DNA from: a virus
IMG/VR virus record: IMGVR_UViG_3300045988_167906
DNA length: 64,000 bases
Strand: one strand, 5' to 3'
Shown here: positions 27,551 through 55,715 of the stretch, in pieces
Position numbering within the stretch: the first letter of the stretch is position 1
How the letters are laid out: every line of letters begins with the position of its first letter
Program-made: the position numbers and the translations under genes
Notes under the pieces: model-generated
What the model was told of the DNA's origin: nothing
What the model saw: the letters and a program-made list of their open reading frames with translations, nothing else
Databases searched by the model: none

Positions 27551-27963
27551 GCAAGGTAATGTCTGGTCCAGGCAATCCTTTTGTATTTAATCAGATGGAT
27601 TTTTTAATGGGTCGTATTAAGAAAGAAGACACATTAAATAAATACCATATGCTTCTTAAATCAGGCAGAGTTATTCTTGAAGACTATTGGTGTTGGCATG
27701 GTCATGAATGGTATAAAGCATTAGTTAAATGTCTTAATGATTTTTATATTGTAATTATATCAGAAATAGATGTAATTAGTATAGAAAGAATAGAAAATCC
27801 AACAGTAGATTCTATCTATATGGAATATATATTGGCAAGCAGAATGAGAGGAGATGAAGTTGATGGCGACTCTATATATGATGTGCGGCTTGAGTGCAAA
27901 TGGAAAGACTACATTCGCGAAATCCTTCGCAAAGATGAATCACATCCGGTATGTAAACCCTGA
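27535..27963 (+). CDS. hypothetical protein
   Basis: Overlap. Confidence 0.4.
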   Translation: MEFDMSKVMSGPGNPFVFNQMDFLMGRIKKEDTLNKYHMLLKSGRVILEDYWCWHGHEWYKALVKCLNDFYIVIISEIDVISIERIENPTVDSIYMEYILASRMRGDEVDGDSIYDVRLECKWKDYIREILRKDESHPVCKP

Positions 27964-28399
27964 TGAATTGTATGCTGTCTTTAATGGTGATGAATGCAAC
28001 CGTAGTCATAAGTTCGAAGTTTGGCAGACATTGTATCAGATTGTACATTGTGCAGAACTGGACAATGCAGATATTATCATTGATACTAACTGTTTGACTC
28101 TTGGACAGAGAGAAGAAATCAGAAGCCGTTTCCCCCATTTCGATAACTATCAGCTTATGGTTATTATTGCTAGCGTAGAAAATTCAAAGGAATGGAACTC
28201 CCAGAGACATAGAGTAGTGCCGCAGCAGGAGCTTGAACGGCAGGCACGTATTGTAGACTGGCCTAATTTGACTGACCATTATAATGGTTGGAATAATATT
28301 AGATATTATTATAATGATGGCTCTCTGTTTACTAAATATCGTGAAATTTATGATGGTGAAGACCATGACTTGCGGCAGGAGAAGGAGGATAATAAGTAA
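27854..28399 (+). CDS. P-loop kinase (polynucleotide-kinase-like NTPase domain)
   Basis: Walker A GLSANGKTT, Walker-B-like IIIDTN. RBS GAGAGGAG. Confidence 0.5.
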   Translation: MKLMATLYMMCGLSANGKTTFAKSFAKMNHIRYVNPDELYAVFNGDECNRSHKFEVWQTLYQIVHCAELDNADIIIDTNCLTLGQREEIRSRFPHFDNYQLMVIIASVENSKEWNSQRHRVVPQQELERQARIVDWPNLTDHYNGWNNIRYYYNDGSLFTKYREIYDGEDHDLRQEKEDNK

Positions 28400-34783: not shown

Positions 34784-35000
34784 ACTGGTTGAAAAAACTG
34801 ATTGGAATAAATATCAGAAAGAAGATATTCTTGATTCGGTTAAAGAGCATCCTGAACTTCTGGATATGACACCTGTTCAGCTTCGTACCAGAGCCAGAGA
34901 TTTGGATTGGGATGCTGATGGATATATGAATAAGGTTAATAGCCTTGAAAATGAAGCGGCTTTGACCAGAGATTTAATTGAAATTATGTATGGAGAGTGA
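34761..35000 (+). CDS. hypothetical protein
   Basis: ATG 34761. Confidence 0.4.
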   Translation: MNIAELIKLVEKTDWNKYQKEDILDSVKEHPELLDMTPVQLRTRARDLDWDADGYMNKVNSLENEAALTRDLIEIMYGE

Positions 35001-35005
35001 TAATT

Positions 35006-35812
35006 ATGAATTACCATTCAGATAAATGGGTTATGGATAAGGTAGAAACTCATTTAGAAGCAGCTAATATTAGAAGCGAAAATTGGGTTAGTTTAATGGC
35101 TTATGGTAGCCAGAATTATGGTCTTGATACTCAAAATTCTGATGTAGATACCCGCCTTATTGTTCTTCCTTCATTTGAAGATATTGTATTGAATAAGAAG
35201 CCGGTATCTTATACCAAGATTCTTTCTAATGATGAACACATTGATTTTAAAGATATTCGTTTGTTCATTGATTGTTTGAAGAAACAGAATATGGCTTATC
35301 TTGAATGTATCTTCACGCCTTATAAAATGGCATCAAGTACGTATTGGAATGAGTGGCAGGCACTGCTTAATGAGCGTGAAGCTATTGCACGCTATAATCC
35401 TTACAAGGCAGTTAAGACAATGAAGGGTATTGCTATGGAAAAATACCATGCAATGGAACATAGATATCCTACTAAGGCCCATCTGATTGATACATATGGT
35501 TATGATAGCAAGCAGCTTATGCATCTGCTTCGTATTGAAAGATACCTTGGACGTTATATTGATGGTGTTAAATATGCAGATTGTCTTCAAGCCCCAATGG
35601 GTGATTATCTTCTTGATGTAAAAAATTATCATTATAATCTTGAAACTGCACGAATTGTAGCCAATACTGCTATTAGTAATATTACAAGAGTAGCTGATGA
35701 TTATTGTTCTAAGACCAAGGATGAAGGTAATGAAGAGCTTGAAGATTTTATGAATAAGATTGTTTATCTTATTATGAAAAAAAGAATTGTAAAGGAAATG
35801 TTAAATGTCTGA
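35006..35812 (+). CDS. nucleotidyltransferase (Pol-beta superfamily minimal NTase fold)
   Basis: YGSQNYGLDTQNSDVDTRL matches the G[GS]-x9-13-D-x-D motif. Confidence 0.5.
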   Translation: MNYHSDKWVMDKVETHLEAANIRSENWVSLMAYGSQNYGLDTQNSDVDTRLIVLPSFEDIVLNKKPVSYTKILSNDEHIDFKDIRLFIDCLKKQNMAYLECIFTPYKMASSTYWNEWQALLNEREAIARYNPYKAVKTMKGIAMEKYHAMEHRYPTKAHLIDTYGYDSKQLMHLLRIERYLGRYIDGVKYADCLQAPMGDYLLDVKNYHYNLETARIVANTAISNITRVADDYCSKTKDEGNEELEDFMNKIVYLIMKKRIVKEMLNV

Positions 35813-36009: not shown

Positions 36010-36789
36010 ATGTTCAAGGACTGGGTTGTCCGAGGCGATTGTCATGGCGATTTTACATGGCTTAACGCAAGAATGTTTAGAATTTTAAATCCAAAAGACT
36101 ACGCAATTATTATCCTTGGTGACGTAGGTTTCAATAGTGGCAATACATTCCGGGATGATATGAAGAAAAAGTATGCAAGCCAGTTTGGATATTCTATCTA
36201 TTGCGTGCGTGGTAACCATGAGGTACGTCCTGAGAATGTTGAAGGTATGGAACGCATTTGGGATAGTAATGTTCAAGCTAACGTATGGTATGAGCCGGCC
36301 TACCCTTTGATTAAATATTTTGATAATTATGGGGTTTATTATCTTAAAACAGAAGATAGAGAATATCGCACGTTGGTCATCTGCGGGGCTTACTCTGTTG
36401 ATAAATATTACCGTCTTAAAAATAATCTGCTCTGGTGGGAAGATGAGCAGTTGACTGATGCAGAGAAGTCAGAAGTAGAGAGACTTATTCGGCAGACTAA
36501 CAAGCATTTTGACCTTGTGCTCTCGCACACTTGCCCTTATTCTCTTAGGCCAGTTGATAAATTTCTTTCAGTAGTAGACCAATCTACTGTAGATACATCT
36601 ATGGAAGAGTGGCTTGAAACTATTAAGAATATGATTACATATGATGTATGGCTTAGTGGGCATTATCATGTTGACCGATTTATCAATAAGCATAATATTC
36701 TCTATTTTAATTGCATTGACTCATTAGAGGATATTTTTCTCTGGCATGATAAAATGGATGATACTGTAAATAACATTGACCGCATCTAA
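36010..36789 (+). CDS. calcineurin-like metallophosphoesterase (lambda-phosphatase family)
   Basis: GDCHGD, GDVGFN and RGNHE motifs. Confidence 0.65.
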   Translation: MFKDWVVRGDCHGDFTWLNARMFRILNPKDYAIIILGDVGFNSGNTFRDDMKKKYASQFGYSIYCVRGNHEVRPENVEGMERIWDSNVQANVWYEPAYPLIKYFDNYGVYYLKTEDREYRTLVICGAYSVDKYYRLKNNLLWWEDEQLTDAEKSEVERLIRQTNKHFDLVLSHTCPYSLRPVDKFLSVVDQSTVDTSMEEWLETIKNMITYDVWLSGHYHVDRFINKHNILYFNCIDSLEDIFLWHDKMDDTVNNIDRI

Positions 36790-46428: not shown

Positions 46429-46998
46429 ATGGATATTTAGATTTTATCTATTTATGAATATTTATTTCAAAAGTATATTTTACATAAAGATATATTAAAA
46501 CAATATAAAGGTATAGAATTATATAAAATTATGGAAATTCAAGATAAAATTTTTATTAATAGATATAAATTATTATTGTAGATTATTAATAATAATTATA
46601 ATTTTGATAATTAGTTAATATACACTGATTTTAATAATTTTAATTTTGAACAAAATATTAGTTATATAAATTATTGTTTAAAATTACTATTTAATAATTT
46701 TAAAAAAATAGATAAACAATTTTGGAAAATTTTAGATTAGATTTATTTTTTAATTAATGGTAAAACTAATTTATTTTTATTGTTGGGAAATTTTTATTTG
46801 AATAAAAGTAATTTATAGCAATTTACTGAAGAAATAAAAAAAATTCCTGGAATTAAAGAATAGCTCTCTTTTAGTTATACAGCTTTAAATTTAGCTATTG
46901 AAATTGATAAAGTTGCAGAAAATAAAAATTATCTTAATGAATTAATTGAAATTATTGATAATCATTCACAAGAAAAAATTTATAAATTTGATATTTAA
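46429..46998 (+). CDS. hypothetical protein (189 aa) with six in-frame TAGs in extremely AT-rich DNA
   Basis: A 570-nt frame free of TAA/TGA despite ~85 percent AT. Ends TAA. Confidence 0.45.
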
Positions 46999-47267
46999 TA
47001 AAAATTAATATATAATATATATACAAAATAAAGAAAATAAAGACTTTAACAGCAAAGAAATGGACAGTAAATCCGTCGCGAATGCTACGCAGGTTCGAAT
47101 CCTGCCCTCCCCACCACTATATGGCGGAGGTAGGGAAGCGGTTAAACCCAGCGGAACCAAACCAAATAAGTCTTGTTTGAATAAAATAATTATTTGATTT
47201 TTAATAAAAAATATTATATAATATTTATATGAAAAGAGAAAGGCTTTTACAGCAACTTAAACTTTTT

Positions 47268-47342
47268 TCCGTGGTCGAATAACTGGATAATTCATCAGAG
47301 TTAATTCTGAAAATAAGGATTCAAATTCCTTCCTTGGAGCCA
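47268..47342 (+). tRNA. tRNA-like gene with non-canonical 6-8 nt anticodon loop centred on TTAA; CCA encoded
   Basis: Acceptor tccgtgg/ccttgga (6 of 7), D stem gaat/attc, anticodon stem tcaga/tctga with loop gttaat, T arm aagga-ttcaaat-tcctt, discriminator G plus CCA. Late promoter directly upstream. Confidence 0.4.
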
Positions 47343-47433
47343 AGTATAAAAAGTCTTGGGTAAATTTCTTAATTTGAAAAAATTAAAAAAATATAATATA
47401 ATATATAAGTAATCAATAAGAAATTAAATAAAT

Positions 47434-47582
47434 GCTCTCGTAGCTCAATTGGTCAGAGCCGGCGACTTATCCAAAATTAGTTTAAATGGTAAAATAGTTT
47501 ATGCGCAAGAAAGATGTAAGTTCAAATCTAACATTTTGGGCCAAATCGCCAGATGTGGGTTCAAATCCCGACGGGAGCACCA
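47434..47582 (+). tRNA. tRNA interrupted by a ~78-nt insertion after the anticodon loop; the insertion itself has tRNA-like ends (ccaaaat...attttgg-g-cca, 47471-47543)
   Basis: Outer acceptor gctctcg/cgggagc plus A plus CCA, D arm gctc-aattggtca-gagc, anticodon stem ggcga/tcgcc split by the insert, T arm with ttcaaat. Confidence 0.4.
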
Positions 47583-47608
47583 TATTCCAATAGAAAGGAA
47601 TTAAAATA

Positions 47609-47848
47609 ATGAAGTTGACAAATATTAAGCAGGTTGAAGATTTTATTTCAGCAGTTAATCGTGCTCATAGTAATGTATGGCTGGTTAGTCCGCAGGGCGA
47701 TAGATACAATATGAAATCTGCACTTTCACAGTATATTGCACTTGGTGCATTACTTGGTCAGCATGGCGATGAACTGGAACTTTTTTGTGATAGTAAGCAA
47801 GATGAAGGTTTATTTATTGAATTTTTTGTTCGTCATTCTGAAGTTTAA
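47609..47848 (+). CDS. hypothetical protein (79 aa)
   Basis: GAAAGGAATTAAAATAATG initiation motif. Confidence 0.45.
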   Translation: MKLTNIKQVEDFISAVNRAHSNVWLVSPQGDRYNMKSALSQYIALGALLGQHGDELELFCDSKQDEGLFIEFFVRHSEV

Positions 47849-47903
47849 TAAATTTGATTTTTAATAAAAATATTATTATATTATATAGAGAGTGAGGGAA
47901 AGA

Positions 47904-48863
47904 ATGACTATTATTGAATTATTTGCGGGAATTGGGACATAGATTTCAGCTTTGGTTAAAATTGATCCAAATATTAGATCAATAGGTATTAGCGAAATTG
48001 ATGAACGACCATTGAAAGCATATAAAGTTTTGAATGGTGAATATAATAATTTTGGTGATATCACAAAAATTGATATTTTACCCTATGCAGATATTTGGAC
48101 TTATTCTTTCCCTTGTACTGATTTATCTATTGCAGGGAAGCAAGAAGGTTTTCAAGGAAAAAATTCTTCATTAATTTATGAGGTATATCGTCTCTTGCTT
48201 TCTTCTCCAAAGCCAAAAATTCTTTTAATGGAAAATGTGGCCAATATTTGTAATAATACTTTTATGCCAAAATTTCAAGAGTGGATTAATAGTTTAGCTG
48301 AATTAGGTTATGTATCTAGCTGGAAGAAAATAAAAGCTTATGAATATGGCGGAGCAACTATTAGAGATCGTGTATTCATGGTTTCAGTAATTTCTCCTTT
48401 AAAAAAGTTTATTTTCCCTTTAGCTGAAAATGTTAAAACTACTTTAAAAGATTTTTTAGAGCCAATTAACGAAGAATATTTCATTGATAGTTATGATGGC
48501 CCAAGTGATATTACTACACCATATTATAATGGAGCTAAAAAACTCTGTGATTATAAAAATGGTGGTCAAGGAAATCGAATTTATTCTATATTTGGGCAAG
48601 GAGTTACATTAACTGCTTCTGGTGGAGGAAAAGCCGGATCAAGCGGTGGTTTGTATCTTCGTAATAATAGTATTTATAAACTTACTCCAATTGAGATTTG
48701 TAAAATAATGGGTTGGACTAAAGCAGAAGCAGAAAAGATTTGTTCTGTTTTAACCCCTAGAGAAGTGGGTTTTTGCTTGGGCAATGCCATTGATAGAAAT
48801 GTGTTAATTCATATTTTTAAAGGGATAAAGGAACAATATTATGATGAATTGGGAGAAAAGTGA
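47904..48863 (+). CDS. DNA (cytosine-5)-methyltransferase; TAG at codon 13
   Basis: Motif I ELFAGIGT (upstream of the TAG), motif IV FPCTDLSIAGKQEG (PC motif), motif VI LMENV. Confidence 0.75.
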
Positions 48864-49467
48864 AAAGAAAGCATTTGAATGGTTTAAAAATAACTATGAT
48901 AATGATGCGATTTATCAAGGACGTAATGATTCTACTATTTCAGATATTTATTCTCCTTTATATAATTGCTATATTGAAGTAAAAGATATTACTAATGGTG
49001 CTCGATGCGGGCAATTTACTAAAAGTACCATCAGTAATAACCCATATGCTGAAGCTATTTATTTGGGTAAAAATGATGAAGAAACTTGTATAAATTTTGT
49101 AAAAGAGCATTATAGAGCTAAACGAGTAGGAGCTTTTATCATTATTAATAATAATAATATTTCTCTTGTGGCTTTTGATGATTTTTTTAATAATTATACT
49201 TTTGAAATTCAAAAACCTTATTGCAAAAGAAGCGGCACTTCATCGGCTCCAATTAAAGATAAAGAAACTCTTTTAAAATTTAATACAGCATTTTATCAAG
49301 AAAATAATAAAGTTTTTTGTTCTGATCAAAATTTATTTGGTACTTATTGTTCAATATTTAATCCTTTTGATTATTTTATCAGTAAAACAACTGGTGAATT
49401 AAGAAAAAGAAGTAATACTAATAATATGACTTGGCATATTGTAATTAAAGAAAAATTGAAAAATTGA
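48841..49467 (+). CDS. hypothetical protein overlapping the MTase stop (candidate cognate endonuclease or Vsr-like partner)
   Basis: ATGATGA overlap with the MTase. No recognisable motif. Confidence 0.4.
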   Translation: MMNWEKSEKKAFEWFKNNYDNDAIYQGRNDSTISDIYSPLYNCYIEVKDITNGARCGQFTKSTISNNPYAEAIYLGKNDEETCINFVKEHYRAKRVGAFIIINNNNISLVAFDDFFNNYTFEIQKPYCKRSGTSSAPIKDKETLLKFNTAFYQENNKVFCSDQNLFGTYCSIFNPFDYFISKTTGELRKRSNTNNMTWHIVIKEKLKN

Positions 49468-49529
49468 AAAATTGAAAAATTAAAAAAAATATTATAAAAT
49501 ATATATACAAAATAAATGAGAAATAAATT

Positions 49530-49606
49530 CTCATTTGTATGGGACAGTAGCTTACGAGGTCGGAGCATTGGTCTGAAAAACCAAAGGATGGAGGCTCGAT
49601 ACCTCC
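49530..49606 (+). tRNA. tRNA-Phe (GAA)
   Basis: Acceptor gggacag/ctgtccc, anticodon loop ctGAAaa, CCA encoded. Late promoter motif at 49480-49515. Confidence 0.8.
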
Positions 49607-49616
49607 CTGTCCCACC

Positions 49617-49690
49617 AATTGGTCTTACACATGGGGTTTCCGATTTGAACTAGGCAGATTAGTCACCTGCCGTTGGCAATAGACCAATTA
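49617..49690 (+). ncRNA. structured RNA candidate bounded by an 8-bp inverted repeat (attggtct / agaccaat) with internal hairpin ggcag-attagtcac-ctgcc
   Basis: No ORF. Co-transcribed position inside the tRNA array. Confidence 0.25.
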
Positions 49691-49835
49691 AAAATAAACT
49701 GAGGCAAAGGGAAATCGGGTAGTTATGATGAACTTCATAATGAAATCCTCTTGTAATCAAGCTAATTGGGAGAGAGGTAGCACGGGAACGGGGAGAAGCG
49801 TGCTATAAAAGGTGAAATACTTCTTTCCACCATAA

Positions 49836-49900
49836 GCCGGTGTAGCCGAATGGCATAGGCGAATGGAATTGAACTGAAAATTTTTTGGTTCAATTCCATT
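49836..49900 (+). pseudogene. 5' part of a tRNA gene (acceptor gccggtg, D arm gcc-gaatggcata-ggc, then a 13-bp perfect hairpin) whose 3' part lies at 50773-50800
   Basis: gccggtg pairs with caccggt of the downstream T-arm/acceptor/CCA fragment. The HNH ORF lies between them. Confidence 0.35.
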
Positions 49901-49947
49901 AATGAATAATTTTTAATTTCTAATATATTATGAAAGGAGAGATTGTT

Positions 49948-50760
49948 ATGGCTCGTTCAGATATTTTAGAAAAAGAAAAAGAAATTCGTTAGTGGATAAA
50001 CGAAGAAAAATCTAAACGTTATATATGTGAATAGTTGCATTGTAAACCTGAAACTTTAAATTCTTATTTGGAGAAAATGAATATTGAATATAAGGGATAG
50101 CCTTATAAAAAAGGATAGAATAAAAATCCTCGATGTTATAAGCCAGCTATTTATTATATTGATAATCATAAGTATATTAGCTCTTCTGTTTTAAGACAAA
50201 AATTAGTAAAAGATGGATTGAAAAAAGACAAATGTGAAATTTGTGGTATTTCTATGTGGCAAGGAATTAAATTACCTTTAGAATTACATCATAAAAATGG
50301 AAACCATTTTGATAATGATTTAAATAATCTACAAATTTTATGTCCTAATTGTCATTCAATTCAAAATGGAAATAGTGGAGCAAATATCGGTAAATACGCG
50401 GGATTGCTGGAATAGGTAGACAACTCATCTTTAGACGGTGAGGCCGACAGGTGTGAGGGTCCGAGTCCCTCATCCCGCACCAATCATATTCAAAAGAAAA
50501 ATTATTGTTGTGATTGTGGAAAAGAGATATGTTTAAAAGCTATTAGATGTAAATCTTGTGCATCTAAATTTAGACAAAATTCTAAATCTCCAGATAGAGA
50601 AATTTTAAAAGAATTAATTAGAACTACACCATTTGTAACTATAGGGAAAATGTATGAAGTTTCTGATAATGCTGTCAGAAAATGGTGTAAAAATTATGAT
50701 TTACCTTATTAGTCATTAAAAATTAAAAAAATTTCTGATGAAGATTGGAAAAATATTTAA
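49948..50760 (+). CDS. HNH homing endonuclease with N- and C-terminal HTH-like domains; six in-frame TAGs
   Basis: CEICG...ELHHKNGNHFDNDLNNLQILCPNCH is an HNH motif. A single 813-nt frame runs from the AAAGGAG RBS through six TAGs to TAA. Listed ORF 50218-50415 is an internal fragment. Confidence 0.65.
50398..50482 (+). other. tRNA-like element (gcgggat...atcccgc-A-CCA, T arm gaggg-tccgagt-ccctc) embedded in frame inside the HNH ORF
   Basis: A 7-bp perfect acceptor pairing, T arm and CCA are all present. D and anticodon arms do not fold. Confidence 0.3.
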
Positions 50761-50772
50761 TATATAAGGTGT

Positions 50773-50800
50773 GAAGGTTCGAATCCTTTCACCGGTACCA
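50773..50800 (+). pseudogene. 3' tRNA fragment (T arm gaagg-ttcgaat-ccttt, acceptor caccggt, A, CCA) immediately after the HNH gene
   Basis: See 49836-49900. Confidence 0.4.
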
Positions 50801-51293
50801 ACAGTGAAGTAGTAGCTATACTCATTATAATCAAGGCTCGGTGGTTGGTGGCTCCATCGTTATGTAAATAAGCCATATGTATATTACTTCTTGGTGTAAT
50901 GGAAGCATACTGCCTGAAAGAGGCGGAGGTATTGGTTCGATCCCGATAGAAGGAGTAATTAAAGCTAGGAAATGATAATCGCCTAAATAAATAAAGGATT
51001 ATTATTAAAGGTTATTTAGATTAAGGAAGCGGTTGAAGTTATTACTTACTTGATTATAAAATAACATGACCGCAAGACGAGTGTTTGAAGCTTGTCTATA
51101 AACAAATTCTTCATATGTTGTCTTTTTATACTTTCTCTTTGGTTGTTTCTTGACATATAAGTAAAAACGGAAAGGGAGTTAAAGGTTTAGCTATAAAACC
51201 GGTTTGTTTTTAATAAGATTTTTAAAATTAGGTGACAAAATCTTATTTGAGTGACGCTGCTCAGGAGGGTCCGGAACCTCTGAAATGCGATAT

Positions 51294-51370
51294 GCGGTTG
51301 TAGCTCAGTTGGTAGCAGCATTTGCCTTTTAAGCAAAGGGTCGGGAGTTCGAGCCTCCCCAACCGCACCA
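51294..51370 (+). tRNA. tRNA-Lys (TTT)
   Basis: Acceptor gcggttg/caaccgc, anticodon loop ctTTTaa, T arm gggag-ttcgagc-ctccc, CCA encoded. Confidence 0.8.
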
Positions 51371-51740
51371 GGTCAAGTTTGAGAAATTTCATAAAGCATC
51401 GCTGACGTTAAATGGCACTTATATGAAAACGCGTAAGTAATATAAGATAGCAAAATTCTCGTAGTTCATCCTATTAGAGAATCTTAAAGAGTAATGGCAA
51501 GGTCATATCGCGGGAGACCGTGCGTATGAGATACCAATAAAGGTAGCACATCTTGTGTTGAACAAGATAAAAGATGGAAAGGATACCTGCCATACTTGGA
51601 CGGTAAAAGAAGGCGTTGAATGTAATCGAAAAATATTCCGTTGGTTCTTAGGGGAGCGACGTAACAGTGAAACCCGAGGTTTGAGTTACCTTGTCCAAAC
51701 GCTATGTATAGTCAAAGTCTAGGCAACAAGGTTTTAATTT

Positions 51741-51817
51741 GCGGGATTAGCTCAGCTGGTTAGAGCGTTTGGTTTACACCCAAGAGGTCATTGGTTCAAA
51801 TCCAATATTCCGCACCA
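51741..51817 (+). tRNA. tRNA-Val (TAC) copy 1
   Basis: gcgggat/attccgc, loop ttTACac, T arm attgg-ttcaaat-ccaat, CCA encoded. Confidence 0.85.
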
Positions 51818-51820
51818 TAA

Positions 51821-51858
51821 GCAGGGCAACGCGGGTTCGATCCCCGCCTGGCGCACCA
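51821..51858 (+). other. tRNA 3'-half-like element (T arm gcggg-ttcgatc-cccgc, acceptor ctggcgc, A, CCA) with no matching 5' half
   Basis: Directly abuts tRNA-Val copy 1. Confidence 0.4.
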
Positions 51859-52064
51859 TTTGAGTTAAAAAGTATAAATCTTATAAACTCCCTGTAAAAT
51901 CAGGCGGACAGATGGACCGATAGTACCATTATTGTGGAAGTCAGGCAGGTCCATTTTACTGGGCTTACTGTAAAAGCCAGTTTAATACACCCTCCATACC
52001 CAATGAGGAATTTTTATAAAGGTCTATTTAATTTTTCTTGGTAGTTTAGTTAAATAGACTGTAT

Positions 52065-52141
52065 GCGGGATTAGCTCAGTTGGTTAGAGCGTTTGGTTTA
52101 CACCCAAGAGGTCATTGGTTCGAATCCAATATCCTGCACCA
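52065..52141 (+). tRNA. tRNA-Val (TAC) copy 2
   Basis: Near-identical to copy 1 (three substitutions). Confidence 0.85.
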
Positions 52142-52206
52142 ATAAATTTGAAAATTTAAAAAAAATATTATATAATATATATATAATAATAAAGGAGATA
52201 TTTGAA

Positions 52207-52374
52207 ATGGCAACTACTAAGAAACCTGCAATTAAAATGGACAGCACAGAGTTGAACGAGTATCTTCTGTTCCGCCGTCGTAGATCAATTGTGCCTGCCA
52301 AGAAAGGTAAGGGCATGGAATATGATAGAGCGAAGGAAAAAGAAAAATCTGAAAAAATGATTTCTGATGAATAA
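52207..52374 (+). CDS. small basic protein (55 aa)
   Basis: Late promoter 52150-52190, RBS AAGGAG. Confidence 0.4.
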   Translation: MATTKKPAIKMDSTELNEYLLFRRRRSIVPAKKGKGMEYDRAKEKEKSEKMISDE

Positions 52375-52378
52375 ATAT

Positions 52379-52451
52379 GCTCCCATCGACAAGTGGTCTA
52401 AGTCACCAGCCTTTCACGCTGGAGTCGCCGGTTCAAATCCGGCTGGGAGTA
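52379..52451 (+). tRNA. tRNA-Glu (TTC)
   Basis: gctccca/tgggagt, 3-bp D stem, loop ctTTCac, T arm gccgg-ttcaaat-ccggc. No encoded CCA. Confidence 0.7.
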
Positions 52452-52535
52452 GAGATACAAATTCTACAACCTTCACGCGGTGTATCTTGTTTTAACTAAT
52501 GTAGAATAAAGTAAATAAAAAGGAGCTGTTTAATT

Positions 52536-53159
52536 ATGGCATACATTTATTAGATTATTAATGATATAAATTAGAAAATTTATGTTGGTAAAACTGAATT
52601 TTCTATTGAAAAACGTTTTAAAGAACATTGTAAAGATGCTTTTAGAGAGCGCAATGAAAAACGTCCATTATATTCAGCAATGCGAAAATATGGAGTAGAA
52701 CATTTTCATATTGAACTAATTGAAGAAACTGATGATGCTAATAATCGAGAAACTTATTGGATTGAAAAATTAGGTTCTTTTAAATGGGGATATAATGCTA
52801 CAATAGGCGGAGATGGTAAAAAGTATCTTGATTATGATTTAATTATTGCTTCTTATCAAGAAATTAAAAATATTGAAGAAACTGCTCGTAAATTAGGAAT
52901 TTCTTCTGATAGTGTAGAAAGAATTCTTAAAGAAAAAAAAGAAAAAATTTATTCTCAACAAGAAGTTAATTTAGTTAAATCAGGTAAAAAAGTTGCTCAA
53001 TGTGATAAAAAAACTGGAAAAATTTTAAATATATTTCCATCTATTGGAAGTGCAGGTAGAGCTATTAATAAACCTGATATTACTCATATAAGCGCTGTAT
53101 GTTTAGGTAAAAGACAAAGTGCTTATGGTTATAAATGGAAATTTATTGAAAATAATTAA
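52536..53159 (+). CDS. GIY-YIG homing endonuclease (I-TevI/Seg-like) with two in-frame TAGs
   Basis: MAYIY(TAG)IINDIN(TAG)KIYVGKTEFSIEKRFKEH matches the I-TevI N-terminus GIYQIKNTLNNKVYVGSA...KRWKRH, with the first TAG falling on the Q of GIYQI. C-terminal ...AYGYKWKF tail. Confidence 0.75.
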
Positions 53160-53173
53160 AATTATTCTTATAT

Positions 53174-53250
53174 GGTGCTATAGTTCAGTTGGCTAGAATG
53201 TCGGACTGTCTCTCCGAAGGTCAGGGGTTCGAGTCCCCTTAGCATCGCCA
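53174..53250 (+). tRNA. tRNA-Asp (GTC)
   Basis: D arm tagttcagttggctagaat as in bacterial tRNA-Asp, loop ctGTCtc, T arm agggg-ttcgagt-cccct, CCA encoded. Confidence 0.75.
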
Positions 53251-53282
53251 TTCGTTTTCTCGATATAAGCGATTTTGTTACA

Positions 53283-53345
53283 TAGAACTTGATAGAGCGT
53301 TCTATTAATCTGGTTAGATTAAGTTTTATAACTATCATATTTGGG
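53283..53345 (+). repeat. ~65-bp double-hairpin element (tagaac...gttcta; ttaatct...agattaa), repeated at 54432-54510
   Basis: Two near-identical copies, each immediately upstream of a tRNA. Confidence 0.5.
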
Positions 53346-53418
53346 GCACGGGACTGCATGGAGTGGTCGTCTCCCTTGCAAGGAGAAAAGCAGATGAGTT
53401 CGATTCTCATGTGTTCCA
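53343..53418 (+). tRNA. tRNA-Ala (TGC), with G3:U70
   Basis: ggggcac/gtgttcc gives a G3:U70 pair, anticodon arm tctcc-ctTGCaa-ggaga, T arm atgag-ttcgatt-ctcat. No CCA. Confidence 0.55.
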
Positions 53419-53557
53419 GTCATCTAAGATCCACAACCGCCACGAGGTAGATGATGGGTAATGCTAATAGTGGACAAAAATAAAAATCGGGCAAAGTTAA
53501 TTAAACTCCTCAAAAATTTTGCTAAATATAATAGAAGGAAAAAAGGAGTTGAATTAA

Positions 53558-54190
53558 ATGCCTAGAAAATTAACTCAAGAAGAATTTGAACAAAGAGTTT
53601 ATAAATGTGTAGGGGATAAATATTTTGTTATAAGTGAATATAAAGGAAAATCTAAACCAATAGATTTAAAATGCAATATTCATGATATTGTTTTTCAAGC
53701 ATCCGCAGAATGTTTTATGCGAGGTCCAAAAGAAGTAAGATGCTCTTGCCCTAAATGTTCAGAAGAAAAGAAAAATGAAAAATTTTCTGCAAATAGAACT
53801 GAATTAGAATGTGCTTATTGTGGAAAGAAATTTATTCGTCCAAATTCTAAATTGAATAATTCAAAAAGTGGAATATATTTTTGCTGTAGAGAACATAAAG
53901 ATTTAGCTCAACGGATAGAGTTTGGTTTGAAAGAAATTCAACCAAATCATTATGGAAATAATATTGAAAGTATATATACTTATCGTAAAAATGCTTTTAA
54001 ATATTATCCTCATAAATGTGCTATCTGTGGTTGGGATGAAGATAAAGATATTTTAGAAGTTCATCATATTAATGAAAATAGAGAACACAATGAATTAGAG
54101 AATTTAATCATATTATGTCCTATTTGTCATAAAAAATTAACTTCTCATAAATATAAATTAATTAATAGGGAAAAAATTATTTCTTATTAA
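53558..54190 (+). CDS. HNH homing endonuclease
   Basis: C-terminal CAICGWDEDKDILEVHHINENREHNELENLIILCPICH. Confidence 0.7.
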   Translation: MPRKLTQEEFEQRVYKCVGDKYFVISEYKGKSKPIDLKCNIHDIVFQASAECFMRGPKEVRCSCPKCSEEKKNEKFSANRTELECAYCGKKFIRPNSKLNNSKSGIYFCCREHKDLAQRIEFGLKEIQPNHYGNNIESIYTYRKNAFKYYPHKCAICGWDEDKDILEVHHINENREHNELENLIILCPICHKKLTSHKYKLINREKIISY

Positions 54191-54213
54191 TTTATGAAAA
54201 ATTTATAATATTT

Positions 54214-54256
54214 GGAGCTTGAGGCAAAGCGAGTTCGACTCTCGCAAGTTCCACCA
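54214..54256 (+). other. tRNA minihelix (acceptor ggagctt/aagttcc, T arm gcgag-ttcgact-ctcgc, A, CCA) lacking D and anticodon arms
   Basis: 43 nt. Folds as an acceptor/T coaxial stack only. Confidence 0.4.
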
Positions 54257-54328
54257 TTAAGTGTGATATATTCCAAACACGTAGGGTGGTAAGCACACGG
54301 GTTTTCTAGAAGCCTTCCCTATGAATAT

Positions 54329-54404
54329 GGATGCATAGCTCAGTTGGTAGAGCAATTGACTGTTAATCAATGGGTCGGAGGATCATACCCTTCTGCATCC
54401 GCCA
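54329..54404 (+). tRNA. tRNA-Asn (GTT)
   Basis: ggatgca/tgcatcc, loop ctGTTaa, CCA encoded. Confidence 0.8.
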
Positions 54405-54508
54405 CCGCACTCGCGGAAAACATACAACTCAACTGGTGCATAGAACTTGATGGAGCGTTCTATTAGTCTGATGCCTGCATTAGATTAAGTTTTATAACCA
54501 TCATATTT

Positions 54509-54582
54509 GGGGACATAGTTTATGGTAGGAAAACGTTGAATTTAATTCAAAGTCGAGGGTGCGATTCCCTCTGGCTCCACCA
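54509..54582 (+). tRNA. type-I tRNA with anticodon loop aT-TTA-At (anticodon UUA); nonsense-suppressor candidate
   Basis: Acceptor ggggaca/tggctcc (6 of 7), D arm gttt-atggtagga-aaac, anticodon stem tga(a)/(t)tca, T arm gaggg-tgcgatt-ccctc, discriminator A, CCA encoded. Confidence 0.5.
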
Positions 54583-54716
54583 TTTATGAAAGACAATACA
54601 GCAATTATAAATTTGCTTTGGGAGCCGTGTGTTGTAGGTTCGAGTCCTACTGTCTGGTTGAAGATCGGATATAGCGTAATTGGTAGCGCAACGTATAAAA
54701 ATTGTCTTGTTAATAT

Positions 54717-54792
54717 TGCGGGATCGTCAAGTGGTTAAGACACCAGCCTCATAAACTGGTTATCGTGGGTTCGAATCCCACTCCCGCAACCA
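54717..54792 (+). tRNA. tRNA-Met/fMet/Ile2 (CAT)
   Basis: tgcggga/tcccgca, anticodon loop ctCATaa, T arm gtggg-ttcgaat-cccac, CCA encoded. Preceded by a degenerate 5' tRNA half at 54665-54716. Confidence 0.65.
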
Positions 54793-54916
54793 TATGAAAA
54801 GCCCACACAGCAATTTTTAATAAGGTTAAATAAGAAATTCTGCAAAAATTTTTTAGAGTTGGTTCAAATCCAGCAAATGATTTTAGGGCTTTGTTAAAAT
54901 TGTTAAGGAGAAAATA

Positions 54917-55102
54917 ATGAAGTTCAATCCAGGAGATAAGGTCTGGTGTAAGAAGTATGGCAAGGGTAAGTGCCGCAAGACTGATGATAAGGACAATTTC
55001 ATGACTTATCTTTTCAGATTTTATGATGGTACTCTGATTTGGATGCCAAAACGTCAGGCTGAACATTTTGTAAGAGTTCGTTCCACCGAGGCCACGGTGT
55101 GA
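54917..55102 (+). CDS. hypothetical small protein (61 aa)
   Basis: RBS AAGGAG. Confidence 0.4.
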   Translation: MKFNPGDKVWCKKYGKGKCRKTDDKDNFMTYLFRFYDGTLIWMPKRQAEHFVRVRSTEATV

Positions 55103-55261
55103 ATATAAAGTCCGGTTATAGGAAATCCTGTCATTAGGCGGCAGGCTACCGGTAATCCTTTCTTATATATTTAAATATGTAAGGAACAAAAACTATACAA
55201 TAGATAGAGTTTTTACGCCTTGGCGCAATGCTTGTTTTTTACTATCTATTTTTTTATATTC

Positions 55262-55348
55262 GGAGTCGTGGGATAATGGTATTCCAATGGATTGCTAATC
55301 CATCCTACCTCTTGGGTAGTCCGCGTTCGAGTCGCGGCGATTCCGCCA
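55262..55348 (+). tRNA. tRNA-Ser (GCT), type II
   Basis: ggagtcg/cgattcc, 3-bp D stem, loop ttGCTaa, long variable arm ctacc-tctt-gggtag, T arm ccgcg-ttcgagt-cgcgg, CCA encoded. Confidence 0.8.
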
Positions 55349-55354
55349 TTATAT

Positions 55355-55442
55355 GTAGGAGTGCCAGAGTGGTCGATTGGGTTAGTCTCCAAAACTAATT
55401 GTAGCTGCACATCCAGGGTTCGAATCCCTTGCTCCTATGCCA
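55355..55442 (+). tRNA. type-II tRNA (Ser/Leu-like architecture) with apparent anticodon CCA
   Basis: Acceptor pairing, 3-bp D stem, anticodon arm ttagt-ctCCAaa-actaa, ~15-nt variable arm, T arm with ttcgaat, CCA present. Confidence 0.5.
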
Positions 55443-55715
55443 TACGTATTAAGACTCATTTTCAGCAAACTTTTGCCTGTAAAGGCTCTACAATACTTAT
55501 TTATTACTAATAGATGAAAAAGTATAATAAAGAAAATAAAGTATATTTTGAAAAGTTTTTTCTTTTTAGCTAGTTTAGTAAACTAAATTTCGCATTTTTT
55601 CTTCTGGCTTTTCAATGAGTCTTGTTTATTAAAATAATTGGTATCGCTAAGCTTTATGGTAATTGTGGTGTATTTAAATCATAGATAGTTAAGGGTCTAT
55701 AGCCAATTATGGTAT

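What the first reader, a model, noticed from the sequence alone, without database searches (positions are those of the whole stretch)
51821..54256. tRNA minihelices and 3'-half elements (acceptor plus T arm plus CCA, no D or anticodon arms)
Four elements carry a perfect T arm and an encoded CCA but lack the body of the tRNA. They lie at 47072-47115, 50773-50800, 51821-51858 and 54214-54256. The last has both acceptor strands and folds as a 43-nt minihelix.

They could be decayed tRNA genes. They could equally serve as RNase P/RNase Z punctuation, CCA-enzyme decoys, or anticodon-nuclease bait (inference).
Basis: seen in the sequence. Interest (0 to 1): 0.55.

Follow-up and report, generated by a model that had tools for sequence, protein, structure and literature searches.

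The report
tRNA gene scars plus a tRNA-mimic RNA
Three of the four "tRNA 3'-halves" are leftovers of phage tRNA genes broken by selfish endonuclease genes or by recombination. The fourth is half of a conserved RNA that rearranges a tyrosine tRNA and probably partners a Ro60-like RNA-repair protein.

Summary
All four elements are real: a 5-bp T stem, a TTCGAnn loop, 7 nt, a discriminator A and CCA. Eleven such sites were observed against 0.08 expected. They are not one kind of thing.

- **E2 (50773-50800), E4 (54214-54256), E3 (51818-58):** these are scars. Close relatives carry the intact genes. These are a tRNA(UAG), a tRNA-Ala(UGC), and a tRNA-Lys(UUU) interrupted by a tRNA-like insert.
- **How the scars arose:** in the window, HNH endonuclease cassettes, each bringing its own tRNA with the same anticodon, replaced most of the first two genes. 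E3 is an orphan 3' exon left by recombination through tRNA-Val.
- **E1 (47072-47116):** this is not decayed. It is the upstream half of a 135-nt unit found in 54 other contigs. The order is T arm, acceptor 3' strand, CCA, 7-nt linker, acceptor 5' strand, D arm. A covarying helix formed by the RNA ends closes the unit.
- **What E1 resembles:** this is the architecture of YrlA-type Y RNAs. In relatives the unit lies upstream of a DUF2828/vWA gene whose predicted fold matches Ro60.
- **Open points:** Ro-like binding, RNase P cleavage and any decoy role are inferred. Hairpin-plus-ACCA remnants recur after related HNH genes, so a processing role for E4 stays possible.

The parts
47040..47175 (+). 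Unit A: the complete permuted tRNA-Tyr-like 'handle RNA' that contains E1. Its own sigma70-like promoter lies at 46988-47016.
   Evidence: Conserved in 54 other contigs, giving 36 distinct sequences with the window. Promoter TTGATA-17-TATAAT, 11 of 12 matches.
47040..47055 (+). Handle 5' strand AAGACTT (47040-46) followed by the conserved ACAGCAA motif (47049-55).
   Evidence: Pairs with 47168-74. The T-A to C-G compensatory change splits 8:8 across 16 sequences. The same motif occurs in units B, C and D.
47060..47076 (+). Anticodon-arm-like hairpin ATGGA-CAGTAAA-TCCGT. GTA is the Tyr anticodon. Position 33 is A here and U in most relatives.
   Evidence: Sequence. The local stem is invariant but broken in L014.
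47077..47116 (+). E1 proper: 12-nt variable region, T arm 47089-47105, acceptor 3' strand CCTCCCC 47106-12, A, CCA 47114-16.
   Evidence: T-stem C-G to U-A compensatory change in L020.
47117..47123 (+). Linker CTATATG that caps the acceptor stem. It is the presumed site of RNase P and 3'-trimming cuts.
   Evidence: Sequence. The cuts are inferred by analogy with M. smegmatis YrlA (PMC4201824).
47124..47155 (+). Acceptor 5' strand GCGGAGG, TA, D arm GGGAAGCGGTTAAACCC, A, and closing strand GCGGA that pairs with TCCGT at 47072-76.
   Evidence: The long-range stem is 100% paired in 16 sequences, with 1 compensatory change and 4 G-U-type changes.
47168..47174 (+). Handle 3' strand AAGTCTT.
49836..49865 (+). 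5' remnant of the resident tRNA(UAG): acceptor 5' strand, D arm, and 4 nt of the anticodon stem.
   Evidence: Identical to the intact gene of L001 and L017 up to the breakpoint.
49948..50760 (+). HNH homing endonuclease 1, related to T5 hegA. A type-II tRNA-Leu(UAG) lies in frame inside it at 50398-50482.
50773..50800 (+). E2: 3' remnant of the same tRNA(UAG). T arm, CACCGGT, A, CCA.
   Evidence: The gene is intact in L001, L017, L053/55, L075 and L076, and split only in the window and L044.
51741..51817 (+). tRNA-Val copy 1. It sits where relatives have a Val-derived tRNA-like insert.
51818..51858 (+). E3: orphan 3' exon of a nested tRNA-Lys(UUU). TAA, GCAGG, GCAAC, T arm, CTGGCGC, A, CCA.
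   Evidence: Identical over about 70 nt to L017 and L044, where the 5' exon GCGCCAG..CCTGC-CTTT is present. There is no 5' exon in the window.
53342..53419 (+). Cassette-borne variant tRNA-Ala(UGC), with G3.U70 and no encoded CCA.
   Evidence: The same variant precedes HNH2 homologues in L021, L023, L024-28.
53419..53486 (+). HDV-like (theta-type) ribozyme candidate immediately 3' of that tRNA.
   Evidence: 24.5 bits, below the gathering score of 44. P1 covaries with L028.
53558..54190 (+). HNH homing endonuclease 2.
   Evidence: Pfam HNH, E = 6e-7.
54214..54256 (+). E4: internally deleted resident tRNA-Ala. GGAGCTT, 8 nt, T arm, AAGTTCC, A, CCA. It has A3-U70 in place of G3.U70.
   Evidence: The 3' 28 nt are identical to the intact tRNA-Ala of L017. 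Fold.

Best explanation
The four elements have different origins.

**E2, E3 and E4 are scars of tRNA genes in a phage tRNA island that is being reshuffled by free-standing homing endonuclease genes.**
- An HNH cassette carrying its own tRNA-Leu(UAG) replaced the anticodon loop, the 3' stem strand and the variable loop of a resident tRNA(UAG). This left E2 and a 30-nt 5' remnant.
- A cassette made of a variant tRNA-Ala(UGC), an HDV-like ribozyme and an HNH gene sits in front of a resident tRNA-Ala. That resident gene survives only as the internally deleted minihelix E4.
- E3 is the 3' exon of a tRNA-Lys(UUU) gene whose anticodon loop carried a tRNA-Val-derived insert. A crossover between that insert and a true tRNA-Val gene left the exon orphaned behind tRNA-Val copy 1.

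**E1 is functional.** It is the upstream half of a roughly 135-nt RNA with its own promoter. In this RNA a tRNA-Tyr-like body is circularly permuted. The acceptor stem is capped by a 7-nt linker after an encoded CCA. The RNA's 5' and 3' ends pair in a conserved handle (AAGRC..CAGCAA / ..GYCTT). This is the architecture of YrlA-type Y RNAs.

**Inferred steps.**
- The handle binds a Ro60-like DUF2828/vWA protein.
- RNase P and 3' trimming open the linker to give a two-piece, CCA-ended tRNA mimic, as in M. smegmatis YrlA.
- The particle works with the phage's RNA ligase, kinase, phosphoesterase and RlaP genes in tRNA repair, or as a decoy for host tRNA nucleases.
For: **Scars.**
- Alignments of the window against intact genes in L017 and L001 show sharp breakpoints and identical flanks.
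- An independent assembly, L044, is 99-99.9% identical to the window across 44.7-57.5 kb. It shares E2, E4 and both HNH genes, but has the complete nested tRNA-Lys.
- L055 has Lys, then 370 nt, then Val, without E3. This fits a crossover.
- HNH and GIY-YIG domains were found in the cassettes. HNH1 is related to T5 hegA.
- HNH2 homologues sit just downstream of a variant tRNA-Ala(UGC) in L021, L023 and L024-L028, which come from unrelated contigs.
- A precedent exists: SegB in T-even tRNA clusters (PMC2330249; PMC13096335).

**E1.**
- The permuted order is conserved in 54 other contigs, giving 36 distinct sequences with the window.
- Compensatory changes occur in the handle helix, the T stem and the closing stem. 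The structure is 94.7% paired, against 36-57% for slid controls.
- In the L002 clade the unit ends 85 nt upstream of a DUF2828+DUF7788 gene. In other clades the distance is 1.5-7 kb on the same strand.
- The predicted structure of that protein (pLDDT 76) has Ro60/Rsr as its top 10 PDB matches, with E from 4e-7 to 5e-5.
- A handle-motif scan of 80 DUF2828 loci gave 34 hits. All were upstream and on the same strand. None was on the opposite strand or downstream.
- Paralogous unit C matches Rfam YrlA at 29 bits, E = 7e-5.
- The window encodes an RNA ligase, an AAA_33 kinase, a metallophosphoesterase and RlaP.
- The published YrlA description matches this topology and documents RNase P cleavage with a CCA end (PMC4201824).
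- Phage Ro/TROVE proteins with a tRNA-like partner are recognised in RNA-repair contexts (PMC7824862).
Against: - No DUF2828 gene lies in this 64-kb window. In close relatives it is on the same contig but not adjacent to the unit.
- Unit A scores only 12 bits against Rfam YrlA, E = 6.7. It lacks the GNCGAA(N)G motif.
- Unit B carries a tRNA-like body in normal order inside the same handle. The handle could therefore be a general precursor stem.
- The Foldseek TM-scores are modest, 0.36-0.52.
- The canonical Tyr anticodon loop, the variable region and the encoded CCA could mean a real decoding tRNA.
- For E4, a hairpin-plus-ACCA with A3-U70 recurs after HNH2 homologues in L023 and L028, with compensatory changes. 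This hints at selection rather than a pure scar.
- No expression data exist for any element.
Confidence: 0.72

Rival explanations
1. E1's unit is a true circularly permuted tRNA-Tyr gene. Its product is matured into a chargeable, decoding tRNA-Tyr. It would be either two-piece or joined by the phage RNA ligase after circularisation.
For: The anticodon loop is the canonical CUGUAAA in most relatives. A type-II-like variable region is present, CCA is encoded, and a 7-bp acceptor stem is present. ARAGORN finds no other tRNA-Tyr in the window. The phage encodes an RNA ligase.
Against: - U33 is A in the window's subclade, and position 32 also varies.
- Pair 2:71 is always a mismatch or a bulge.
- The covarying stem is the long-range one. 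That leaves the anticodon loop in an internal loop.
- The same handle carries non-tRNA inserts next to Ro-like genes.
- L016 has an ordinary tRNA-Tyr as well.
- No bulge-helix-bulge motif is visible.
- No report of permuted tRNA genes in bacteriophages was found.
Confidence: 0.15
2. The remnants, E4 above all, are retained as functional tRNA-like punctuation. Minihelix or acceptor hairpins ending in ACCA would direct RNase P or 3'-end trimming. This would release or stabilise the endonuclease mRNA, or soak up CCA- or tRNA-binding enzymes.
For: - After HNH2 homologues, L023 (GAGAATG..TATTCTC-C-ACCA) and L028 (GAGGAT..ATCCTC-C-ACCA) keep both acceptor strands. The changes are compensatory. Like E4, they have A3-U70 in place of the Ala determinant G3.U70.
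- In the same phages, tRNA-like inserts bounded exactly by their 5' end and their CCA sit in the anticodon loops of tRNA-Ile and tRNA-Lys. Their acceptor stems covary.
Against: - E2 and E3 have no nearby 5' strand.
- All three elements are absent from the nearest endonuclease-free relatives.
- Their 3' parts are identical to the intact genes, which fits recent events.
- L021 and L024-27 cassettes show no recognisable remnant in the ~260 nt read after the ORF.
- E4's fold is not better than shuffles (z = -1.6).
Confidence: 0.2
3. The fragments are duplicated tRNA 3' ends left by integrase-mediated insertion of a mobile element (att-site duplication), or they are assembly chimeras.
For: Duplicated tRNA 3' ends are the classic signature of integrative elements (general knowledge).
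Against: No integrase was found. The inserted genes are HNH and GIY-YIG endonucleases. E2 is not a duplicate: the resident gene is split and its middle is missing. The same arrangement occurs at 99-99.9% identity in an independent metagenome assembly.
Confidence: 0.02

Closest known systems
YrlA-type bacterial and phage Y RNAs with Ro60/Rsr (Chen et al. 2014, PMC4201824; Rfam RF02553)
   Same: The RNA ends pair in a protein-binding stem. The tRNA-like module runs T arm, then capped acceptor stem, then UA plus D arm, all closed by a short stem. M. smegmatis YrlA has a 7-bp acceptor, is cut by RNase P into two halves, and ends in CCA. The genes lie upstream of a Ro60-fold gene on the same strand.
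   Different: - The handle motif is AAGRC..CAGCAA, not GNCGAA(N)G.
- The partner is a DUF2828/DUF7788 protein that Pfam does not file under TROVE.
- CCA is encoded rather than added.
- A Tyr anticodon-arm-like hairpin and a long variable region are present.
- Scores are far below Rfam's threshold: 12 bits for unit A and 29 bits for unit C, against 69.
- No Ro-like gene lies in this window.
Circularly permuted tRNA genes of Cyanidioschyzon merolae and Thermofilum pendens (from my own knowledge: Soma et al. 2007; Chan et al. 2011)
   Same: The 3' half, with its T arm, lies upstream of the 5' half, with its D arm. A short spacer joins the acceptor ends. The leader and trailer are complementary.
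   Different: Those genes use a bulge-helix-bulge motif, a splicing endonuclease and a circular intermediate. None of these is evident here. The hosts are bacterial, and the anticodon region is duplicated rather than cleanly split.
Homing endonucleases in phage tRNA clusters: T4/T6 SegB (PMC2330249, PMC13096335) and the T5 hegA HNH enzymes
   Same: HNH and GIY-YIG genes lie between tRNA genes. They show presence/absence polymorphism among close relatives, co-conversion of flanks, and rearrangements through tRNA homology. HNH1 is a hegA homologue at 34-36% identity.
   Different: Here each cassette carries its own tRNA with the same anticodon as the gene it disrupts (Leu-UAG, Ala-UGC, Glu-UUC in the window; Lys-UUU in L001). 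Two of the three cassettes in the window carry an HDV-like ribozyme between the tRNA and the endonuclease gene. One tRNA lies in frame inside the ORF.
Acceptor-T-arm minihelices as substrates of RNase P, the CCA-adding enzyme and AlaRS (from my own knowledge: Francklyn and Schimmel 1989)
   Same: E4 has a 7-bp acceptor stem, a T arm and ACCA, and it derives from tRNA-Ala.
   Different: An 8-nt bulge separates the two helices. The G3.U70 determinant is replaced by A3-U70 with G4.U69.
Theta (minimal HDV-like) ribozymes next to tRNAs of recoded gut phages (Kienbeck et al. 2024, PMC10879173)
   Same: Sub-threshold HDV-like matches begin at the nucleotide after tRNA-Ala' and tRNA-Glu', both of which lack CCA, in a TAG-recoded gut phage.
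   Different: The ribozymes are not part of the four elements. Here they sit between a tRNA and a homing endonuclease gene, a context that paper does not mention.

Membership tests
YrlA-type Y RNA | tRNA-like module in the order T arm, capped acceptor stem-loop, D arm, closed by a stem | tested here: met
   Structure counted on 16 sequences: 94.7% paired, with compensatory changes in three helices. Unit A aligns end to end with the Rfam YrlA topology.
YrlA-type Y RNA | 5' and 3' ends of the RNA pair to form the protein-binding stem | tested here: met
   The 7-bp leader/trailer helix shows a T-A to C-G change split 8:8. The distal part covaries among paralogues A to D.
YrlA-type Y RNA | GNCGAA(N0-1)G motif near the 5' end | tested here: not met
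   The conserved 5' motif is AAGRC(N2-5)..CAGCAA.
YrlA-type Y RNA | Encoded within about 4 kb of a Ro60/TROVE gene, on the same strand | tested here: inconclusive
   Met in relatives: 85 nt upstream in the L002 clade and 1.5-7 kb in others. The partner has a Ro60-like predicted fold. Not met in this window.
YrlA-type Y RNA | Reaches Rfam RF02553 gathering score (69 bits) | tested here: not met
   Unit A scores 12.1 bits, E = 6.7. Unit C scores 29.1 bits, E = 7e-5.
YrlA-type Y RNA | Bound by the Ro60 orthologue; modified or cleaved by tRNA enzymes | not testable with these tools
   Needs RIP, northern blots and RNase P assays.
Circularly permuted tRNA gene (C. merolae type) | 3' half upstream of 5' half, with acceptor ends joined by a short spacer | tested here: met
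   47106-47116, then 7 nt, then 47124-47149.
Circularly permuted tRNA gene (C. merolae type) | Leader and trailer form a bulge-helix-bulge splice motif at the anticodon-loop junction | tested here: not met
   By inspection of alignment A1, there is a plain 7-bp helix flanked by 12-nt and 28-nt unpaired strands. No 3-nt bulge / 4-bp / 3-nt bulge arrangement is present.
Circularly permuted tRNA gene (C. merolae type) | Mature product is a contiguous, aminoacylated tRNA | not testable with these tools
   Needs RNA sequencing and charging assays.
Free-standing homing endonuclease cassette in a phage tRNA cluster | HNH or GIY-YIG ORF inserted between or into tRNA genes | tested here: met
   Pfam HNH and GIY-YIG. 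hegA homology.
Free-standing homing endonuclease cassette in a phage tRNA cluster | Presence/absence polymorphism with conserved flanks among close relatives | tested here: met
Free-standing homing endonuclease cassette in a phage tRNA cluster | The enzyme cuts the endonuclease-free allele and drives gene conversion | not testable with these tools
   Needs cleavage assays and co-infection experiments.
tRNA-Ala acceptor-T minihelix | 7-bp acceptor stem, T arm and NCCA | tested here: met
   E4 fold. An 8-nt bulge lies between the helices.
tRNA-Ala acceptor-T minihelix | G3.U70 identity pair | tested here: not met
   E4 has A3-U70 and G4.U69. The intact L017 gene has G3.U70.
Integrase att-site tRNA 3' duplication | Adjacent integrase and an intact tRNA copy regenerated at the other end | tested here: not met
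   No integrase among the neighbouring ORFs. The E2 gene is split, not duplicated.

The most novel reading that the evidence does not exclude
These gut phages may use tRNA-shaped modules as a general RNA-processing and anti-defence toolkit. Three parts make up this reading.
- The handle RNAs would be a new, unannotated family of Y RNAs for DUF2828-type Ro proteins. One of them would be a two-piece, CCA-ended tRNA-Tyr mimic that serves as repair platform or bait for host tRNA-Tyr nucleases.
- tRNA-like inserts in anticodon loops (tRNA-Ile at 47434-47579; tRNA-Lys in relatives, whose 3' exon is E3) would be a new kind of protein-dependent intron. RNase P would cut at the insert's 5' end, another cut would fall after its CCA, and the phage RNA ligase would seal the exons.
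- Minihelices such as E4 would be the same signal reused at the ends of endonuclease mRNAs.
Probability: 0.2. Interest if true: 0.85.

Novelty: new variant of a known kind. Interest (0 to 1): 0.62.

Why it matters
- **Annotation.** Orphan T-arm-plus-CCA fragments in phage tRNA islands can be read as a record of homing-endonuclease traffic. They show a recurring design in which the selfish gene brings a replacement tRNA for the one it destroys.
- **A candidate RNA family.** E1 points to an RNA family that is absent from Rfam yet present in at least 54 other human-gut phage contigs. It joins a permuted tRNA-Tyr body to a handle found upstream of Ro60-fold DUF2828 genes.
- **If confirmed.** It would give DUF2828 proteins an RNA partner and extend Y RNAs to recoded gut phages. 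It would also make testable whether phages deploy tRNA mimics with Ro-like proteins and RNA ligases against host tRNA-cleaving defences.

Tried and rejected
- **Megablast of the island against GenBank phages:** no match.
- **Split tRNA spliced in trans for E3:** rejected. The 5' exon sequence is absent from the window. All 7-mer complements lie inside ORFs or other tRNAs.
- **Group I intron reading for E2 and the nested inserts:** rejected. Rfam found no intron match. The tRNA-like inserts are only about 60-75 nt and match the tRNA model (35.5 bits).
- **tmRNA or permuted tmRNA for E1:** only 9-16 bits, and ARAGORN found no tmRNA.
- **Sequence search of the DUF2828 protein against PDB:** nothing found. 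Only the fold comparison showed Ro60.
- **First version of the handle-motif scan:** it had a wrong 3'-strand check and returned zero hits. It was corrected.
- **Literature searches:** no report of permuted tRNAs in bacteriophages, no report of a tRNA nested in a tRNA, and nothing relevant on DUF2828.
- **Whether the tRNA-Leu inside HNH1 is an insertion:** homologue comparison was suggestive only. T5-type homologues are about 34 residues shorter over the same span, but jumbo-phage homologues are not.


Full report
**Context.** The window is an AT-rich (34.7% GC) phage segment coded on the + strand. TAG is read through in its late genes. Positions 47,000-55,500 form a tRNA island. It holds 14-16 recognisable tRNA genes and three homing endonuclease genes: HNH at 49948-50760, GIY-YIG at 52536-53159, and HNH at 53558-54190. 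GenBank phages hold no close match. IMG/VR and human-gut metagenomes hold many relatives of 100-200 kb. One independent assembly, L044 (OJAW01000005.1), is 99-99.9% identical across 44.7-57.5 kb.

**Observation.** All four elements have a perfect 5-bp T stem, a TTCGAnn loop, exactly 7 nt, a discriminator A and CCA. Eleven such sites occur in the window, against 0.08 expected in dinucleotide shuffles. Neither ARAGORN nor Rfam calls any of the four as a tRNA. E4 folds as the described 43-nt minihelix. The statement that the tRNA body is missing holds for E3 and largely for E4. It does not hold for E1 or E2.

**E2 (50773-50800).** A matching acceptor 5' strand with a D arm lies 937 nt upstream, at 49836. 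In L001, L017, L053/55, L075 and L076 the two pieces are one ordinary 76-nt tRNA with anticodon UAG. The alignment shows identity up to the fourth base of the anticodon stem and again from the T arm onwards. In between, the window has the HNH1 gene. HNH1 is a relative of the T5 hegA endonuclease of the T5 tRNA region. It contains a type-II tRNA-Leu(UAG) at 50398-50482, read through in frame. E2 is therefore the 3' remnant of a gene split by a homing-endonuclease cassette that supplies a tRNA with the same anticodon.

**E4 (54214-54256).**
- Its last 28 nt are identical to the 3' end of an intact tRNA-Ala(UGC) with G3.U70 in L017. L055 also has the short, uninterrupted version.
- In the window and in L044 the same position holds a different 78-nt tRNA-Ala(UGC) without CCA (53342-53419). 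An HDV-like ribozyme candidate follows it, then HNH2, then E4.
- The bases before E4 (ATATTTGGAGCTT) resemble the leader and 5' end of the resident gene (AAATATGGGACTT). E4 therefore looks like the resident tRNA-Ala with its D and anticodon arms deleted.
- Homologues of HNH2 lie just downstream of a similar variant tRNA-Ala(UGC) in L021, L023 and L024-L028, which come from unrelated contigs. In L022 the endonuclease gene lies inside the anticodon loop of such a tRNA-Ala. This endonuclease family is thus specialised on tRNA-Ala genes.
- One observation keeps a functional reading open. After the ORF, L023 and L028 also keep a hairpin made of both acceptor strands, followed by C-ACCA. The changes are compensatory, and like E4 they have A3-U70 in place of G3.U70.

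**E3 (51818-51858).**
- In L017 and L044 this sequence is the 3' exon of a tRNA-Lys(UUU). That gene's anticodon loop is interrupted by a 59-nt tRNA-Val-derived element...CCTGC-CTTT[GTGGGAT...ATTCCGC-A-CCA]TAA-GCAGG... Removing the insert from its first base to its CCA restores the loop CUUUUAA.
- In the window a complete tRNA-Val (copy 1) stands where the insert is. The 70 nt from its T arm through E3 are identical to L017 and L044. The 5' exon is absent.
- L055 has Lys, then 370 nt, then Val, without E3. L044 has the nested Lys followed by the window's downstream flank.
- The simplest history is a crossover between a true tRNA-Val gene and the Val-derived insert, which left the exon orphaned.

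**E1 (47072-47116).**
- Seven nucleotides after its CCA come GCGGAGG, TA and a D arm. Upstream lie a Tyr-type anticodon-arm-like hairpin and a 12-nt variable region.
- The whole unit is flanked by complementary AAGACTT and AAGTCTT. It has its own near-consensus promoter.
- This order is conserved in 54 other contigs, giving 36 distinct sequences with the window.
- On 16 aligned sequences, three helices carry compensatory changes: the handle helix, the T stem, and a long-range stem that pairs TCCGT (47072-76) with GCGGA (47151-55). That long-range stem is paired in every sequence. The local anticodon stem is invariant but broken in L014.
- The resulting topology is end helix, closing stem, T arm, capped acceptor stem, UA plus D arm. 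This is the topology of Rfam's YrlA model and of the published YrlA Y RNAs. M. smegmatis YrlA has a 7-bp acceptor stem, is cut by RNase P in vivo, and ends in CCA (PMC4201824).
- A paralogous unit at 54590-54712 matches YrlA at 29 bits, E = 7e-5. Unit A itself does not (12 bits).

**Protein partner.**
- In about 30 contigs of one clade the unit ends 85 nt upstream of a gene with Pfam DUF2828 and DUF7788/vWA domains. In other clades that gene is 1.5-7 kb downstream on the same strand.
- Its AlphaFold model (pLDDT 76) has Ro60/Rsr structures as its ten best PDB matches, including a phage Ro60. Sequence search alone found nothing.
- Across 80 further DUF2828 loci, a strict pattern for the handle (AAGRC..CAGCAA plus a 7-bp complement) gave 34 hits. 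All were upstream on the gene's strand. None was on the other strand or downstream.
- The inserts between the handle strands vary. They include the permuted Tyr-like body, a permuted tRNA-like body without CCA, a tRNA-like body in normal order, and short non-tRNA hairpins.
- The window has four handle units but no DUF2828 gene. Contigs of its closest relatives do encode one elsewhere.
- The window also encodes an RNA ligase, an AAA_33 kinase, a metallophosphoesterase and RlaP. This gene set has been described for phage RNA repair together with Ro/TROVE proteins and a tRNA-like partner (PMC7824862).

**What is shown and what is inferred.**
- Shown:
  - the sequences and their register;
  - the intact ancestors of E2, E3 and E4 in relatives;
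  - the association of endonuclease families with particular tRNAs;
  - the conservation and covariation of unit A;
  - the genomic association of the handle with a gene of predicted Ro60 fold.
- Inferred: that the endonucleases caused the breaks, that the DUF2828 protein binds the handle, that RNase P opens the linker, and any role in repair or as a decoy.
- A decoding permuted tRNA-Tyr is the main rival for E1. Position 33 is A in this subclade, pair 2:71 never forms, and the covarying stem excludes a closed anticodon loop. I therefore rate it lower.

**Comparison and novelty.**
- Homing endonucleases in phage tRNA clusters are known (PMC2330249; PMC13096335). So is their ability to rearrange tRNA genes. 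E2, E3 and E4 are therefore ordinary in kind.
- The pairing of each endonuclease with a replacement tRNA of the same anticodon did not turn up in my literature searches.
- Y RNAs that mimic tRNA are known in bacteria and mycobacteriophages. The handle motif, the DUF2828-type partner, the encoded CCA and the near-complete tRNA-Tyr mimicry are new variants.
- I found no report of permuted tRNA genes in bacteriophages or of a tRNA nested in a tRNA.

Noticed in passing
window 47434-47579 (insert about 47471-47543): A tRNA-Ile(UAU)-like gene has a 75-nt tRNA-like element in its anticodon loop. The element has an acceptor stem, D arm, T arm and CCA, but no anticodon arm. It scores 35.5 bits on the Rfam tRNA model. 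Removing it from its first base to its CCA gives the loop CTTATAA. L071 carries that intron-less allele. The insert's acceptor stem covaries (A-T to G-C). L001 has the same insert in a different tRNA body.
   Followed up: partly
window 50398-50482 within ORF 49948-50760: A type-II tRNA-Leu(UAG) gene lies in frame inside the HNH1 endonuclease ORF, between the HNH domain and the C-terminal zinc-ribbon/HTH part. T5-type homologues are about 34 residues shorter over the same span.
   Followed up: partly
window 52452-52506 and 53419-53486: HDV-like (theta-type) ribozyme candidates, below the Rfam threshold, start right after tRNA-Glu and tRNA-Ala genes that lack CCA. They precede the GIY-YIG and HNH2 genes. 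The same tRNA, ribozyme, GIY-YIG order is seen after tRNA-Met in L001. The ribozyme may be part of the mobile cassette.
   Followed up: partly
window 47240-47358, 54590-54712, 55451-55622: Three further handle RNAs (AAGRC..CAGCAA ... GTCTTG). B holds a tRNA-like body in normal order that ends in GCCA. C holds a permuted tRNA-like body without CCA and gives a weak YrlA match. D holds a 150-nt insert that is not tRNA-like.
   Followed up: partly
window 16813-18222, 27854-28399, 34997-35812, 36010-36789: An RNA-repair gene set: RNA ligase (PF09414 with a PHA02142 OB fold), AAA_33 kinase, RlaP nucleotidyltransferase, and a calcineurin-like phosphoesterase.
   Followed up: partly
window 47065-47071: The anticodon-like loop of unit A reads CAGTAAA (A at position 33) in the window's subclade. 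Most relatives have the canonical CTGTAAA, and a few have TTGTAAA or TAGTAAA. The 4-6 nt centre of the variable region is the most variable part of the unit.
   Followed up: no
window 54509-54579: A tRNA found by Rfam (48.5 bits) but not by ARAGORN has the anticodon loop ATTTAAT, that is, anticodon UUA. This would read the TAA stop codon, yet TAA is used as a stop here. No CUA suppressor tRNA is in the window, although in-frame TAG codons are common after about 40 kb.
   Followed up: no
window 53263-53341 and 54439-54508: An approximately 75-nt repeat precedes tRNA-Ala' and the tRNA(UUA). It looks like a tRNA 5' portion (AGAACTT-GA-TAGAGCGTTCTA), followed by a conserved hairpin whose loop varies in length. 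Both copies are also present in L017.
   Followed up: no
window 49618-49835, 50957-51293, 51371-51740, 51859-52064: Long non-coding stretches between tRNA genes, with few stable ORFs. They are 90-99% conserved in relatives. The first ends in ...TTCCACCA just before the tRNA(UAG) 5' remnant. They may be structured RNAs. Rfam reports nothing there.
   Followed up: no
window 23461-25584: An S-adenosylmethionine synthetase-like ORF appears to be interrupted by an intein-like insert of about 350 residues (CVNGDTEFL ... VLRYNNRVFITGN).
   Followed up: no
L019 4290-4420; L058: Deletion and replacement variants of unit A. In L019 only the 5' half remains, directly after a tRNA-Leu(CAA). In L058 the part upstream of the T arm is replaced. 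Both show that rearrangement through tRNA-like sequence is frequent in this phage group.
   Followed up: no
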